Assembly: GCA_963674785.1 (NCBI GenBank)
Contig: OY771555.1
Span: 144,851-208,850, forward strand
Direction: 5' to 3'
DNA length: 64,000 nt
Source: Caldisericia bacterium
GTDB taxonomy: Bacteria > Caldisericota > Caldisericia > JAAYUI01
Below the pieces are notes generated by a model, which worked only from the letters and a program-made list of their open reading frames with translations, did not search any database and was not told the origin of the DNA. Positions 21,134 to 63,890 of the stretch are shown here, in pieces; within the stretch, counting starts at the first letter, position 1, and each line of letters starts with the position of its first letter. Position numbers and translations under genes: made by a program.

Positions 21134-21209
21134 GGGCGGGTGGCTCAGTTGGTAGAGCATTTCCTTCACACGGAAGAGGTCGCAGGTTCGAGTCCTGTCT
21201 CGCCCACCA
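21134..21209 (+). tRNA. tRNA-Val (anticodon CAC), CCA encoded
   Basis: GGGCGGGTGGCTCAGTTGGTAGAGCATTTCCTTCACACGGAAGAGGTCGCAGGTTCGAGTCCTGTCTCGCCCACCA folds as cloverleaf: 7-bp acceptor, D arm GCTC/GAGC, anticodon loop TTCACAC, T loop TTCGAGT. Confidence 0.9.
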
Positions 21210-38746: not shown

Positions 38747-40280
<1,534 letters not shown>

Positions 40281-40668
40281 CATCTTATATATGTATTATA
40301 TATAAAGTGTTATATTAAATAACTAGGTGCTCTCACACCTATATTGTCATTCTGGAATTGCACCGGATATTGACTTTCATGTGTTAATTGCTATCTAGTT
40401 TTCAAACTACTACATTTCCCAGAAGTGAATCGAGGAAAGTTCAGTTTACCACAAAAGGTGACCACCGTCAAGCAGTTACCCTTTCGGCCAACGAGTAATG
40501 AAATATAACCCAAAAAGTTATAGAGTCAAGGAATGGATATAACATGAATAATATATTGCATTCATGGGACTTTCTTGAGAATCAAATTCAATAATCGAAA
40601 GGTTCCTTTAACCATCATTCGAAAGATTTTCACCAAAACGCTTCACATTCAACGATTAAATCGAATCC

Positions 40669-58075: not shown

Positions 58076-59463
58076 TTTTTCTTTAATCTTGAAAATGGTT
58101 TTCGGAGCTTTTTCAACAGGGCGCTCTCAGAAAGTGAAGGAACTTTTGATTCATATGGTTCAACTGCGATACCAAATTTTGCAAAGACATCTGTATTTTG
58201 CCTGAAGTATTCAAAAATAGCTTTAACAAAAACCAAAAATGGGATTGCAAGGAGAATAGCAAATGGTCCAAAAAGTGTCGAGAAAGCAAACATCACAAAC
58301 ACAATCAAAAGTGGATGTGTTTGCGTAACCTTTGCAAAAAGAGGTTTTGAAATCAGGAGATCTATTGTTTGTTCAATGATAATAAACCCAATTGAATAGT
58401 AGAGGATTATGCTCCAATTTCCCGTCGGAATTGCAGAGGCAAACGCAAGCAAAAGTCCAAGCGTAAACGATAGAATCGGGCCAACATATGGAACCATCTC
58501 ACCAAACGCCACTATCACCCCTATTATAAATGCCGAGGGTAGACCCAAAATCGCACACATTAATCCTACCAATATACCCGTTGTCGCTGAAAGAAGTGAC
58601 TGCGCCCTTACATACGTCCAGATTTTCTCATAAACATTTGCAAGCACACCTTTTACAACATTTCCAGTTTTATTTGGGAAAATCGAGAATAACACAGCAT
58701 TGGCCAAATCCCAGTCAAGTAGCAAAAATATTGTAATTATAAGGATTATTAGCCCATTGAAGATTCCATTTGCGATCTTGCCAACAAGATTCACAGTTCC
58801 GGAAATAATTGAAGTCGCAAGTGATGAAAGCCAACTTGAAAGGTTTTGAAGTGCAGTATCAATTGTTTCAGATATCGAAGCAGATGGTGAGATAACCAAA
58901 ATCTGGTATTGCAAATCATTTATTATTCCATCTAGCTCCTCAATCTCATCAGCATTTTCTACCGGATCAAGAACCGAGATTCTATTTTCGATTGAATCAA
59001 TTGCGGTACCGTATGAAAGAGTTAAGGCGTTTGAAACATGTCTACCTTCACCATTCAAGGTAAGGTTTACGATCCAACCCTCAACGGAATTTTTTATCTC
59101 ATTTACATCCAACTGTTGAAAAGTATCAGCAAGCTCTGTTACCTGAGTTCCAATAACCTTTGATGCAGGAATAATAATCCAAACCATAATCGTTATGATC
59201 ACAAGGAAGCTTATAACAATTGACAAAACACGAGGTAATTTCAGTTGGACTTTTTTCTTTTTCGCGACCTTAAAACTTCCCCTGGACAAAAAGTCGACCA
59301 TCGGTCGAACCAGGAAAACAAATACAAGCGAAATCAAAAATAGAAGTAGCAATGACCTTAGAAGCCAAAGACCATAAAACAACAAACAAATAAGGAGAAC
59401 TACAGCGATTGCCAAAAGAACTTTTAGGAAACCGTTGAGTTCTCCTCTTGTAATTTGAATCAT
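58072..59463 (-). CDS. AI-2E family transporter (UPF0118/PerM-like) with large extracytoplasmic insert
   Basis: 463 aa; C-terminal TM core resembling AI-2E transporters (GEMVPYVGPILSF...). Confidence 0.75.
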   Translation of the reverse strand: MIQITRGELNGFLKVLLAIAVVLLICLLFYGLWLLRSLLLLFLISLVFVFLVRPMVDFLSRGSFKVAKKKKVQLKLPRVLSIVISFLVIITIMVWIIIPASKVIGTQVTELADTFQQLDVNEIKNSVEGWIVNLTLNGEGRHVSNALTLSYGTAIDSIENRISVLDPVENADEIEELDGIINDLQYQILVISPSASISETIDTALQNLSSWLSSLATSIISGTVNLVGKIANGIFNGLIILIITIFLLLDWDLANAVLFSIFPNKTGNVVKGVLANVYEKIWTYVRAQSLLSATTGILVGLMCAILGLPSAFIIGVIVAFGEMVPYVGPILSFTLGLLLAFASAIPTGNWSIILYYSIGFIIIEQTIDLLISKPLFAKVTQTHPLLIVFVMFAFSTLFGPFAILLAIPFLVFVKAIFEYFRQNTDVFAKFGIAVEPYESKVPSLSESALLKKLRKPFSRLKKK

Positions 59464-59480
59464 TTTTTACCTGGAATTAT

Positions 59481-59729
59481 TTAGTGAAGTTCAGAATCAA
59501 ATTCTTCTGTTGCTTTTTGTGGAACTCTTTTGTCAATTTCTTCTTTGACTTTTGAAGCTATTTGACCAGCAATCTTTCTGGCTTCTTTTGAGTATTCCAT
59601 TCCCTTTTCATAAACGAGTTTTTGTGTGTCCTCACCTTTGGCTGGGGCAAACATTATTCCAAGGATAAAACCAATTGCTGAACCGATAACAACACCTGCT
59701 ACAAATCCGCTTCCATCTCTGTCTGACAT
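59481..59729 (-). CDS. YtxH-like membrane protein
   Basis: Start moved to ATG 59727-59729 (AAAGGAGG-N8-ATG): MSDRDGSGFVAGVVIGSAIGFILGIMFAPAK... Confidence 0.7.
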   Translation of the reverse strand: MSDRDGSGFVAGVVIGSAIGFILGIMFAPAKGEDTQKLVYEKGMEYSKEARKIAGQIASKVKEEIDKRVPQKATEEFDSELH

Positions 59730-59733
59730 ATTT

Positions 59734-60084
59734 TTAATCCTCCTTTTTATTTCTTTTTCTTCTACCAAGCATGCTTCCCACAAATCTCATGCCATCAACG
59801 ATTGACCCGAGACTTGAGATAACCGTACCAATCAATAGTACAGACTTATTAACCACAGGTTCAGCCTCAGTAACAATTGAATTAACTTTTGGCATGATCT
59901 CCGTGTTTACCGTTTTTGTCATTTTTTCGGCCTCGGATAGCGTTCTTTTTACTTGAAGTAACATTGGTACAAGGTAAAGAACAACAACCAATGCACAAAC
60001 TCCCAGAAGACCGATAAGAATCCACATCGCCGTTATTTGAACGTTCAATCTTTCAATAAGCGTCGAAACTTGCCCTTGAGTCAT
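59734..60084 (-). CDS. DUF948 (YtxG-like) membrane protein
   Basis: Start set at MTQGQVSTLIERL, preceded by GAGGTGGG; single TM helix plus coiled coil; paired with the YtxH-like gene as in Firmicutes. Confidence 0.7.
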   Translation of the reverse strand: MTQGQVSTLIERLNVQITAMWILIGLLGVCALVVVLYLVPMLLQVKRTLSEAEKMTKTVNTEIMPKVNSIVTEAEPVVNKSVLLIGTVISSLGSIVDGMRFVGSMLGRRKRNKKED

Positions 60085-60131
60085 TTTTACCCACCTCACA
60101 TTTCATTGCCCCACAAATGCCGTGATAGCCG

Positions 60132-60303
60132 GGGGTTTCTGCACCCCTCATCAAGTGGGTCGCAACTTTCATAAGGCTTATGAACCAGATCTTTACAGGC
60201 ACAGTCGCCTCAAGGCTTCGCAACCCTTCCATTTACGTTAGGCAGAAAACGTAGCGTATGCACGAACACAGCAGGGCATATGAATATTCTAGCACAAACC
60301 CCA
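60132..60303. ncRNA. Candidate structured RNA (GC-rich intergenic element, identity unknown)
   Basis: About 170 nt at roughly 50% GC in an AT-rich genome; termini GGGGGUUUCUGC (60132-60142) and GCACAAACCCC (60293-60303) can pair (10 of 11 bp). No SRP, tmRNA, RNase P or tRNA motifs found. Confidence 0.25.
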
Positions 60304-60327
60304 GTAAGTTCAAGCTTGATGAGCTAG

Positions 60328-60858
60328 TTATGAGAAAAATATGTTGATGATAAATCTTATAAGACCGAGAGCAAACATCGTAAGTAGTATTGCCATCAAC
60401 CATTCTGAGATTTTCCCCCATGGGAGAATTCTTGTCTGCCCGGTTGCTGCAGGGAGTCTTTTTGGTAAGTCAATTGTCAAACTTTCGCCATTTTCTATTC
60501 TTTCGATTGGAAAAGAGATCGATGGTGAATTGCCCCATTTTGTGTATAGGTTTATCTCCCAACCTGAAAGCTTTCCACAATCAACAAGTTCGAGAAGGGT
60601 GACCTCATTGCTATTAATATTTCCATTGCTTGAAACAATCTCAGTATCAGAAAAAACCGAAAAAATATGCGGTCGGGGTAGCAGTGTGGTTAAAGGATAT
60701 ATCACTGAGATAGACACAATCAAAAGGGCAGCCAACAGGGTGCTGTTTATTGTTCCTAGTGGTAACCAAAGAAGAACAATTGATGGAGAGAGGGTTAGAA
60801 ACCACACCCAAAAAGATGACATTCCAGACTTCGTTTTTATTGCTTTCATAACATCCAC
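60328..60858 (-). CDS. Hypothetical membrane protein
   Basis: 176 aa, several hydrophobic segments; no recognised motif. Confidence 0.55.
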   Translation of the reverse strand: MDVMKAIKTKSGMSSFWVWFLTLSPSIVLLWLPLGTINSTLLAALLIVSISVIYPLTTLLPRPHIFSVFSDTEIVSSNGNINSNEVTLLELVDCGKLSGWEINLYTKWGNSPSISFPIERIENGESLTIDLPKRLPAATGQTRILPWGKISEWLMAILLTMFALGLIRFIINIFFS

Positions 60859-60861
60859 CTA

Positions 60862-61455
60862 CTAAAACAACTTCCAAAAAAACAAAACTGCGAGAGCAAC
60901 AACCGATACAATCAGCCCCCAATCAACCATGTGATAACCAGCATATTGCTCAGTAAAAGTCGCATTTGGAATCGCAACTTTTATATCTTCGATCAATTCA
61001 TCAGGTTTTTGAAGCTCATCCAGGGCGATAGATCCAAACAACCTGAGATCTGAACCAGTAAATATTTGAAGCTCTCTTCCAAACTTGCTTGACCTTTTGA
61101 CAAGCACAATTCGAACAACATCTTCAAGCTGGACTACTTTCGCAGTAACCTGCAGAAACGTGTCGGAAAGGTAAACCCTTACGATCCCAGTTCTGAAGAA
61201 AAGCCTGGAAAGCCATGCCACAAAAATTGCCAGTCCAATAGTCCCGATTACGTATACCCATCCAATATTCAATTTATAAAACTCCACAGGCAACAACATA
61301 GAAAACACTGCCGCATAGACAATAACTGAATAATAAAAATTGATCGGATGACCTGAACTCAACGTATAATACTTTTTTATCTTCTCTTCTTCCACGCTCT
61401 GGATTATATGACTTGACCAAGCATAAGACAAGTTAGTAAAATGAAGCAAGTGCAA
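60862..61455 (-). CDS. Hypothetical membrane protein
   Basis: 197 aa with two N-terminal TM helices; no recognised motif. Confidence 0.55.
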   Translation of the reverse strand: MHLLHFTNLSYAWSSHIIQSVEEEKIKKYYTLSSGHPINFYYSVIVYAAVFSMLLPVEFYKLNIGWVYVIGTIGLAIFVAWLSRLFFRTGIVRVYLSDTFLQVTAKVVQLEDVVRIVLVKRSSKFGRELQIFTGSDLRLFGSIALDELQKPDELIEDIKVAIPNATFTEQYAGYHMVDWGLIVSVVALAVLFFWKLF

Positions 61456-63669: not shown

Positions 63670-63744
63670 AAACAACTCAAAGAAGCAACATCTGAAAAGG
63701 GTTTACCAACCAATGAACACTACAACAAAACACTGTGAAAACAA

Positions 63745-63890
63745 GTTCAGCCGGGCGTGGGAGGGTCACCCGGCTGGGAGCATCCCCCTTTCAGGGGATT
63801 TTGGGAGGTGGGATCTGGGGTAGATCCCTTCACGGACCTGGGGAAATCCGCGTAGCACCAAGCTACCACACCACTGTATGTTTTCGATTA
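63745..63890 (+). ncRNA. Candidate structured RNA (GC-rich multi-hairpin element, identity unknown)
   Basis: About 145 nt at roughly 60% GC with five consecutive hairpins (AGCCGGG/CCCGGCU; AUCCCC/GGGGAU; GGGAUCU/AGAUCCC; CGGA/UCCG; GUAGC/GCUAC). Strand not determined. Confidence 0.25.

What the first reader, a model, noticed from the sequence alone, without database searches (positions are those of the whole stretch)
60100..60327. GC-rich structured intergenic element upstream of the ytxG/ytxH-like pair (6S-like size and closing stem)
Seen in sequence: a ~228-nt spacer between minus-strand genes is about 50% GC. Its ends can form a long-range stem (60132-60142 with 60293-60303, 10 of 11 bp), enclosing about 150 nt with further local hairpins (e.g. 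GGGGGUUUCUGCACCCC at 60131-60147). Size and closed-rod shape are compatible with a 6S-type RNA or a long regulatory leader; I found no SRP, tmRNA, RNase P or tRNA signature.
Basis: seen in the sequence. Interest (0 to 1): 0.45.

Follow-up and report, generated by a model that had tools for sequence, protein, structure and literature searches.

The report
6S RNA gene of a Caldisericia bacterium
The GC-rich spacer holds an ordinary 6S RNA gene on the minus strand, the small RNA that mimics an open promoter and ties up RNA polymerase; standard annotation misses it only because it scores just under the Rfam cut-off.

Summary
The spacer is real: 228 nt, 48% GC against 39% for the window. It contains a 177-nt 6S (SsrS) RNA gene on the MINUS strand, 60280..60104.

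Evidence:
- Full-length match to Rfam RF00013: 43.4 bits, E 1.9e-7, cut-off 46.4.
- Only the minus strand folds better than shuffles (z -3.2; plus strand -0.1).
- A sigma-70-type promoter (TTGAAC-16-TGcTAGAAT, 60313..60286) places the start at about 60279.
- Ten full-length orthologous copies from Caldisericia metagenome assemblies sit in the same gene order. All match RF00013 end to end (37-47 bits; 2 of 10 pass the cut-off). Eleven of 44 predicted pairs show compensatory changes.
- Its end motif (CCCTGCNGTGTTCGT ... CACGGCA) occurs in at least 120 metagenome contigs. All 20 tested are RF00013 hits of 47-121 bits.

That pairing is off by one base, uses the promoter spacer and decays in relatives. 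The true closing stem is 60277-60261 with 60124-60108.

No terminator separates the RNA from the DUF948-like/YtxH genes, whose ribosome-binding site starts 7 nt downstream. This arrangement resembles ssrS-ygfA in gamma-proteobacteria.

Verdict: a new member of a known family, of low surprise.

The parts
60104..60280 (-). 6S (SsrS) RNA gene, 177 nt. RNA position p corresponds to window coordinate 60281-p.
   Evidence: Full-length RF00013 match, model 1-187, 43.4 bits, E 1.9e-7. Fold z -3.15 on this strand against -0.09 for the plus strand. It is the only match in the window to the Caldisericia model R1, at 195 bits.
60286..60313 (-). Sigma-70-type promoter: -35 TTGAAC (60313-60308), 16-nt spacer, extended -10 TGcTAGAAT (60294-60286). 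The predicted start is about 60279.
   Evidence: Promoter scan. The -35 block AGCTTGAA is invariant in the first three orthologues aligned, and TTGAA plus a TAnnAT -10 keep the same spacing in all copies.
60261..60277 (-). 5' strand of the closing stem (RNA 4-20, GCCCUGCUGUGUUCGUG).
   Evidence: RNAalifold pairs columns 4-20 with 181-197. Compensatory or one-sided changes occur at columns 6/195, 11/190, 12/188 and 4/197. 95-99% of cells are paired in the 87-sequence alignment.
60108..60124 (-). 3' strand of the closing stem (RNA 157-173, CACGGCAUUUGUGGGGC).
60241..60250 (-). 5' strand of the internal stem (RNA 31-40, GUUUUCUGCC). This is the predicted stretch copied into pRNA.
   Evidence: Paired to RNA 137-146 in the Rfam alignment. 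Invariant within Caldisericia. The same helix shows many compensatory changes across 87 6S sequences (helices 3-5).
60135..60144 (-). 3' strand of the internal stem (RNA 137-146, GUGCAGAAAC).
60227..60240 (-). 5' strand of the central bubble (RNA 41-54, UAACGUAAAUGGAA).
   Evidence: Unpaired in the Rfam consensus alignment and flanked by G-C pairs on both sides.
60145..60156 (-). 3' strand of the central bubble (RNA 125-136, ACUUGAUGAGGG).
60157..60226 (-). Terminal (apical) stem-loop (RNA 55-124).
   Evidence: RNAalifold columns 58-66/135-143, 72-77/121-128 and 81-86/112-117 show compensatory changes, for example 75/123 AU:6 GC:5 and 72/128 CG:5 UA:4. Length variation is confined to the apical loop.
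60132..60147 (-). Alternative hairpin on the 3' arm (RNA 134-149, GGGG-UGCAGAAA-CCCC).
   Evidence: Columns 154-157/167-170, with 155/169 GC:5 AU:5. The isolated 3' arm folds at -9 to -12 kcal/mol, z -1.3 to -3.7, in the Caldisericia copies. Mean z is -2.0 over 87 6S RNAs, against -0.34 for the 5' arm.
60090..60097 (-). Ribosome-binding site GAGGTGGG of the downstream gene, starting 7 nt after the 6S 3' end.
   Evidence: Read from the sequence. No terminator-like site anywhere in 59400-61000.
59734..60084 (-). DUF948-like membrane protein gene (116 aa from ATG 60084). It is probably co-transcribed with 6S.
   Evidence: Pfam DUF948 at 23 bits, below its cut-off. Sources name its homologues DUF948. 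It lies directly downstream of 6S in every orthologous locus that covers it.
59481..59729 (-). YtxH-family protein gene (82 aa).
   Evidence: Pfam YtxH at 44.8 bits, above its cut-off of 37.5.

Best explanation
Positions 60280..60104 on the minus strand encode the 6S (SsrS) RNA of a Caldisericia bacterium.

Shown by the sequence:
- The gene has its own sigma-70-type promoter.
- The 177-nt RNA folds into the canonical 6S rod. This consists of a 16-bp closing stem, an internal loop, a 9-bp internal stem, an open central bubble (14 nt on the 5' side, 12 nt on the 3' side) bounded by G-C pairs, and a long terminal stem-loop.

Inferred from what is established for E. coli and B. subtilis 6S RNAs:
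- The rod imitates an open promoter and is bound by the housekeeping RNA polymerase holoenzyme, holding it away from DNA promoters when growth slows.
- When nucleotides return, the polymerase copies the 5' bubble strand and the 5' strand of the internal stem into a short product RNA, predicted to be about 5'-GUUAGGCAGAAAACG.
- This frees the 3' strand, which folds into the covarying hairpin GGGG-UGCAGAAA-CCCC, and the polymerase is released.

Also inferred: no terminator follows the RNA, and the ribosome-binding site of the DUF948-like gene starts 7 nt after its 3' end. The RNA is therefore probably cut out of a longer transcript that continues into the DUF948-like/YtxH genes.
For: - RF00013 matches end to end on the minus strand only (43.4 bits, E 1.9e-7 for the 601 nt searched).
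- All ten full-length orthologous copies match RF00013 end to end at 37.3-46.9 bits. L001 (46.9) and L004 (46.5) pass the 46.4 cut-off.
- Folding is strand-specific: z -3.2 for the minus strand and -0.1 for the plus strand.
- A promoter with a TG-extended -10 lies at the right distance. It is conserved in all relatives while the sequence around it drifts.
- In the 11-sequence Caldisericia alignment, 44 pairs are predicted and 11 have compensatory changes. Indels are confined to the apical loop.
- The end motif CCCTGCNGTGTTCGT-N(125-155)-CACGGCA is found in at least 120 metagenome contigs. All 20 of 20 tested are RF00013 hits of 46.8-120.7 bits, and their coordinates are the same as or within two bases of those taken from the motif.
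- A model built from the Caldisericia copies with the Rfam-type structure aligns 87 sequences. 92.3% of cells are paired against at most 51% when partners are slid, 32 of 45 pairs show double changes, and 0 of 500 shuffles reach the observed values.
- The 3' arm alone forms a stable hairpin. A hairpin in this arm is reported to take part in the pRNA-induced rearrangement and polymerase release in B. subtilis and E. coli (PMC4793215).
- There is a precedent for 6S lying in the 5' UTR of the next gene: ssrS-ygfA (PMC4064990).
Against: - The window's copy scores 3 bits below Rfam's curated cut-off, so it does not appear in the gathering-threshold scan.
- Within Caldisericia the internal stem and bubble are invariant. 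Support for that helix therefore comes only from the wider alignment, which was fitted to the model.
- The orthologues fall into few clades, so the compensatory changes represent few independent events.
- No expression, end-mapping, RNAP-binding or pRNA data exist for this lineage.
- No terminator defines the 3' end.
Confidence: 0.9

Rival explanations
1. The element is a cis-acting 5' leader (a riboswitch or attenuator-like element) that controls the DUF948-like/YtxH/AI-2E operon, not a trans-acting RNA.
For: No terminator lies between the structured region and the downstream gene. The ribosome-binding site starts 7 nt after it. The linkage to DUF948-like/YtxH holds in every orthologous locus that covers it.
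Against: - The whole element matches the 6S model end to end and no riboswitch or leader family matches at E<=10.
- Its signature is shared with at least 120 6S genes, none of which has a detectable DUF948 or YtxH homologue anywhere in the fetched locus.
- There is no terminator/antiterminator pair, and the RBS is outside the fold.
- Lying in a 5' UTR is itself normal for 6S (PMC4064990).
Confidence: 0.05
2. This is the reader's model: a rod closed by 60132-60142 pairing with about 60292-60302, spanning nearly the whole spacer.
For: A 10-of-11 complementarity exists once the coordinates are shifted by one base. Only 9 of 200 shuffles give one as good.
Against: - One arm sits between the -35 and -10 hexamers, upstream of the predicted start.
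- The pairing falls to 7, 7, 6 and 3 of 11 in orthologues without compensation.
- The minimum-free-energy folds do not use it.
- The other arm is already used by the conserved internal stem and 3' hairpin.
Confidence: 0.02
3. The spacer encodes a small protein: the 59-codon minus-strand ORF 60232..60053, or one of the other short ORFs.
For: Short ORFs are listed on both strands. The sense ORF starting at RNA position 49 stays open in the two closest relatives checked.
Against: - That ORF is absent or interrupted in L130, L001, L003 and L002.
- Substitutions are pair-compensating rather than codon-patterned, and length differences of 7-19 nt fall inside it.
- It runs into the DUF948-like start region.
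Confidence: 0.01
4. The spacer is a non-functional GC-rich stretch whose structure arises by chance.
For: None beyond the sub-threshold Rfam score.
Against: Folding is strand-specific. The element is conserved with compensatory changes in relatives whose neighbouring proteins are only 51-59% identical. The promoter is conserved.
Confidence: 0.01

Closest known systems
6S / SsrS RNA (Rfam RF00013), as studied in E. coli SsrS and B. subtilis 6S-1
   Same: - Length (177 nt) and a single rod made of closing stem, internal stem, central bubble bounded by G-C pairs and terminal stem-loop.
- Conserved GUGUUCGU ... CACGGCA closing-stem signature.
- A U-rich 5' strand next to the bubble.
- A 3'-arm segment that can refold into a hairpin.
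- Its own housekeeping-type promoter.
(PMC4064990, PMC4793215)
   Different: - It scores at or just below the curated cut-off in this lineage (37-47 bits; 2 of 10 pass).
- No U-run or terminator follows the closing stem, whereas many of the metagenomic 6S genes have one.
- The downstream partner is a DUF948-like/YtxH pair, not ygfA.
ssrS-ygfA arrangement of gamma-proteobacteria (6S in the 5' UTR of the next gene)
   Same: The 6S gene lies directly upstream of a protein gene on the same strand with no intervening terminator, which implies co-transcription and processing (PMC4064990).
   Different: The partner genes are unrelated: small membrane/stress-type proteins instead of 5-formyltetrahydrofolate cyclo-ligase. 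Co-transcription here is inferred, not shown.
Ms1 RNA of Actinobacteria
   Same: It is a structured RNA that binds RNA polymerase, described as structurally related to 6S (PMC9130861 abstract).
   Different: According to that abstract, Ms1 binds the RNAP core rather than the holoenzyme and belongs to Actinobacteria. No family other than 6S matched the region meaningfully.

Membership tests
6S / SsrS RNA (RF00013) | Covariance-model match at or above Rfam's gathering score (46.4 bits) | tested here: inconclusive
   The window copy scores 43.4 bits with a full-length match and E 1.9e-7, so it is absent from the gathering scan. Orthologous copies of the same gene score 37.3-46.9 bits, and L001 (46.9) and L004 (46.5) pass. 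The cut-off is an operational threshold, missed here by 3 bits.
6S / SsrS RNA (RF00013) | Size of about 160-200 nt, with 5' and 3' ends paired in a long closing stem | tested here: met
   The RNA is 177 nt. A 16-bp closing stem appears in the MFE fold, the Rfam alignment and RNAalifold, with compensatory and one-sided changes. 95-99% of cells are paired across 87 sequences.
6S / SsrS RNA (RF00013) | Large single-stranded central bubble bounded by G-C pairs, between an internal stem and the terminal stem (open-promoter mimic) | tested here: met
   The bubble is RNA 41-54 / 125-136. It is flanked by C39-G139 and C40-G137 on one side and G55-57/C122-124 on the other. The internal stem covaries in the 87-sequence alignment, for example UA:29 GC:22 CG:16 at one pair. 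That alignment was fitted to the model, and this stem is invariant within Caldisericia.
6S / SsrS RNA (RF00013) | Terminal stem-loop conserved in structure but variable in sequence and length | tested here: met
   There are 20 pairs with several compensatory changes within Caldisericia. Indels are confined to the apical loop.
6S / SsrS RNA (RF00013) | Conserved primary-sequence signature in the closing stem (GUGUUCGU ... ACGGCA) | tested here: met
   The signature is present in the window. The same motif pair retrieves at least 120 metagenome contigs, and 20 of 20 tested are RF00013 hits above the cut-off.
6S / SsrS RNA (RF00013) | Binds the housekeeping sigma-RNAP holoenzyme and inhibits transcription | not testable with these tools
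   This needs gel shift or co-immunoprecipitation with Caldisericia or heterologous holoenzyme.
6S / SsrS RNA (RF00013) | Templates short product RNAs whose synthesis refolds the RNA and releases RNAP | not testable with these tools
   The evidence is only consistent with this. The 3' arm can form a covarying hairpin that excludes the internal stem. The mechanism is as described in PMC4793215.
6S / SsrS RNA (RF00013) | Abundant discrete transcript | not testable with these tools
   No expression data are available. A promoter is predicted and conserved.
Riboswitch / cis-regulatory leader | Match to a known aptamer or leader family, and an expression platform (terminator or RBS-sequestering helix) | tested here: not met
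   No such family matches at E<=10. No terminator-like site occurs in 59400-61000. The RBS lies outside the fold.

The most novel reading that the evidence does not exclude
In Caldisericia the 6S RNA is not a stand-alone gene. It is the first cistron-like unit of a conserved transcript, 6S / DUF948-like / YtxH (and perhaps the AI-2E transporter and HAD hydrolase), and is released by processing. Production of the RNA-polymerase-sequestering RNA would then be mechanically coupled to a pair of small membrane/stress-type proteins. This linkage was not seen in 120 other 6S loci.
Probability: 0.45. Interest if true: 0.3.

Novelty: new member of a known kind. Interest (0 to 1): 0.2.

Why it matters
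The finding adds a correct gene call to a genome where threshold-based annotation would leave the spacer empty. It also shows that a whole class of a little-studied phylum (Caldisericota) carries 6S RNAs sitting at or just below the Rfam cut-off. Adding these sequences to the seed would fix that.

The conserved fusion to DUF948-like/YtxH genes is a small, testable lead about how 6S is expressed in this lineage. Otherwise the finding confirms what is expected, since 6S RNA is described as present in almost all bacteria (PMC8998176 abstract).

Tried and rejected
- The plus strand as the RNA strand: no Rfam match and fold z -0.09.
- A hairpin on the 5' bubble arm predicted by RNAalifold: no covariation, broken in L002 at one pair, and 5' arms are not more stable than shuffles across 87 sequences (mean z -0.34).
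- A conserved small ORF: rejected.
- DUF948/YtxH linkage as a general 6S feature: no homologue in 120 other 6S loci, and only three distant AI-2E hits.
- Identifying the exact source genome: the window's own 173-aa protein is in the protein collection (NCBI/ENA, 2.23-Mb contig) but carries no name and has no contig on record. The organism is therefore inferred from relatives named Caldisericia.
- Literature: no paper in the held library mentions both 6S RNA and Caldiseric*. Wehner et al. 2014 and Barrick et al. 2005 are not held, so I could not check whether Caldisericum was already listed there.
- Protein-based searches found few relatives, 5 and 4 clusters, so the covariation set is small.

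Full report
OBSERVATION

The spacer between the minus-strand ORF ending at 60328 and the DUF948-like ORF is 228 nt. The DUF948-like ORF has its first possible start at 60099. The likelier start is ATG 60084, preceded by GAGGTGGG.

The spacer is 48.2% GC in a 39.1% GC window, which is the 97th percentile of 228-nt windows.

The long-range stem is not in register as written. Positions 60132-60142 pair at 10 of 11 with 60292-60302, not with 60293-60303, where only 5 of 11 pair. Nine of 200 shuffles give an equally good long-range stem.

WHAT IT IS

A gathering-threshold Rfam scan of the whole window reports only a 16S rRNA and one tRNA. A permissive scan of 59900-60500 gives one strong match: RF00013 (6S/SsrS) on the minus strand, 60280..60104. 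The match covers model positions 1-187, scores 43.4 bits and has E 1.9e-7. That is 3 bits under the curated cut-off of 46.4.

Folding is strand-specific. The minus strand gives -79.3 kcal/mol (z -3.2, 0 of 200 shuffles as good). The plus strand gives z -0.09. The 177-nt core alone has z -3.15.

A promoter-like site lies at 60313..60286 on the minus strand: TTGAAC, a 16-nt spacer and TAGAAT with an upstream TG. This puts the start at about 60279, which is the first bases of the Rfam match.

RELATIVES

The neighbouring AI-2E transporter finds two genomes. One is an uncultured bacterium (L001, 73% aa identity). The other is a 'Caldisericia bacterium' MAG (L002, 54%).

Searches with the two proteins flanking the spacer find only 5 and 4 clusters among 5.8 billion. 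Two of these are named by their sources as Caldisericia MAG proteins. Their contigs supply further copies of the locus.

The gene order is the same wherever the contig is long enough:
- PEGA protein (convergent)
- ~195-aa membrane protein
- ~175-aa membrane protein
- spacer
- DUF948-like protein
- YtxH
- AI-2E transporter
- HAD hydrolase

Every full-length spacer gives a full-length RF00013 match:

| Copy | Bits |
|---|---|
| window | 43.4 |
| L001 | 46.9 |
| L004 | 46.5 |
| L131 | 46.0 |
| L003 | 45.8 |
| L006 | 45.5 |
| L130 | 41.6 |
| L005 | 39.1 |
| L128 | 38.0 |
| L002 | 37.3 |

Two of the ten reach the cut-off. This lineage sits on the edge of the model, which explains the missing annotation.

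STRUCTURE AND COVARIATION

Eleven copies were aligned, one of them cut at its 3' end. RNAalifold predicts 44 pairs, of which 11 have compensatory double changes. The elements are:
- A 16-bp closing stem (RNA 4-20 with 157-173).
- A terminal stem in three segments, with changes such as AU:6/GC:5 and CG:5/UA:4. Length variation is confined to the apical loop.
- A short hairpin on the 3' arm (GGGG/CCCC changing to GAGG/CCUC).

The Rfam alignment additionally pairs RNA 31-40 (GUUUUCUGCC) with 137-146 (GUGCAGAAAC). This internal stem, together with the terminal stem, frames the central bubble. The stem is invariant within Caldisericia, so it cannot be tested there.

To test it more widely I scanned metagenome contigs for the closing-stem signature CCCTGCNGTGTTCGT-N(125-155)-CACGGCA. 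All 20 of the shortest loci are RF00013 hits of 46.8-120.7 bits, and their ends are the same as or within two bases of those taken from the motif.

A covariance model was built from the Caldisericia alignment with the Rfam-type structure. It finds one site in the window and aligns 87 sequences in total. On that alignment:
- 92.3% of cells are standard pairs, against at most 51% when partners are slid by 1-3 columns.
- 32 of 45 pairs have double changes.
- No shuffle of 500 reaches the observed values.
- All nine internal-stem pairs covary.

One caveat applies: the alignment was fitted to the model.

PROMOTER AND ENDS

The -35 block AGCTTGAA is invariant in the three copies first aligned. TTGAA is present in every copy, and each has a TAnnAT -10 at a spacing of 16-17 nt, while the surrounding spacer drifts.

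No terminator-like site exists in 59400-61000. The downstream ribosome-binding site starts 7 nt after the closing stem. Orthologues keep a similarly short gap of about 15-35 nt. The 3' end is therefore probably made by processing of a longer transcript. This parallels ssrS in the 5' UTR of ygfA (PMC4064990).

MECHANISM

Steps shown here:
- The sequence has the size, strand, promoter, rod architecture and conserved motifs of 6S RNA.
- Its 3' arm can adopt two mutually exclusive pairings: the internal stem, or a local hairpin.
- The isolated 3' arm folds at -9 to -12 kcal/mol (z -1.3 to -3.7) in the Caldisericia copies.
- Across 87 6S RNAs the 3' arm is more stable than shuffles (mean z -2.0), whereas the 5' arm is not (-0.34).

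Steps inferred from the established behaviour of E. coli and B. subtilis 6S RNAs (PMC4793215; PMC4064990):
- The rod mimics an open promoter and sequesters the housekeeping holoenzyme.
- The polymerase copies the 5' bubble strand and the internal-stem strand into a pRNA.
- The freed 3' strand forms the hairpin, and the polymerase leaves.

The predicted pRNA (about 5'-GUUAGGCAGAAAACG, antisense to RNA 44-30, window 60237-60251) assumes a start position analogous to those organisms. That assumption rests on my own recollection.

RIVALS

- A pure cis-leader is unlikely. No leader or riboswitch family matches. There is no expression platform. The same RNA signature occurs in front of unrelated genes in 120 other loci, none of which has a DUF948 or YtxH homologue.
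- A small ORF is rejected. The sense ORF is open only in the closest relatives.
- Chance is excluded by the strand-specific fold, the conservation and the covariation.

COMPARISON AND NOVELTY

This is a 6S RNA in every sequence-level respect that can be tested. Biochemical membership (RNAP binding, pRNA synthesis) cannot be tested here.

It differs from the textbook cases in three ways: its sub-threshold Rfam score, the absence of a terminator, and its lineage-specific linkage to DUF948-like/YtxH genes.

No held paper mentions 6S RNA together with Caldisericota. The two survey papers that might list it are not held.

Verdict: a new member of a known kind and of low surprise, but a correct and useful annotation.

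SEEN IN PASSING

A second GC-rich intergenic block at 63738-63880 is a stronger candidate for something undescribed. The details are in the separate list.

Noticed in passing
window 63738-63880, minus strand (orthologues L136:6210-6352, L134:6904-7047, L135:3362-3505, L137:2629-2772): A second GC-rich intergenic element of about 143 nt lies convergent to the PEGA gene.
- Its core is about 97% identical between clades whose flanks cannot be aligned.
- It forms five hairpins ending in a terminator with a U-run, with two compensatory pair changes.
- The minus-strand fold has z -2.2, against -0.7 for the plus strand.
- The loops and linkers are C-rich: CCCC, ACCCC, CACCUCCCAA and ACCCUCCCA.

This is the design of sRNAs that pair with Shine-Dalgarno sequences (RsaE/RoxS-like, from my own knowledge). 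No Rfam family matches at E<=1 and ARAGORN finds no tmRNA. It is a candidate new sRNA.
   Followed up: partly
window 38747-40282 (minus strand): A complete 16S rRNA gene has no 23S, 5S or spacer tRNA anywhere in the 64-kb window. That includes 38.7 kb on its downstream side. The only tRNA is tRNA-Val at 21134-21209. The rRNA genes therefore appear to be unlinked in this genome.
   Followed up: no
window 60328-60858 (-) and 60862-61455 (-): Two adjacent predicted membrane proteins (176 and 197 aa) have no Pfam match. The 176-aa one has only 5 homologous clusters among 5.8 billion proteins, and the relatives that carry a name are Caldisericia MAGs. Both always lie just upstream of the 6S gene.
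   Followed up: partly
window 60341-60865 (+) versus 60328-60858 (-); L128:727-1266: The 176-aa gene region is open on both strands: 174 aa on the plus strand and 176 aa on the minus strand. In one NCBI MAG the gene caller chose the opposite strand (179 aa). In the other assemblies it chose the strand co-directional with 6S. One of the two annotations is probably wrong.
   Followed up: no
loci L008-L127 (metagenome contigs): The simple pattern CCCTGCNGTGTTCGT-N(125-155)-CACGGCA works as a very specific 6S finder. It gives at least 120 hits, and 20 of 20 checked are RF00013 members. Many of these have a U-run directly after the closing stem, which the Caldisericia copies (apart from L002) lack.
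   Followed up: partly
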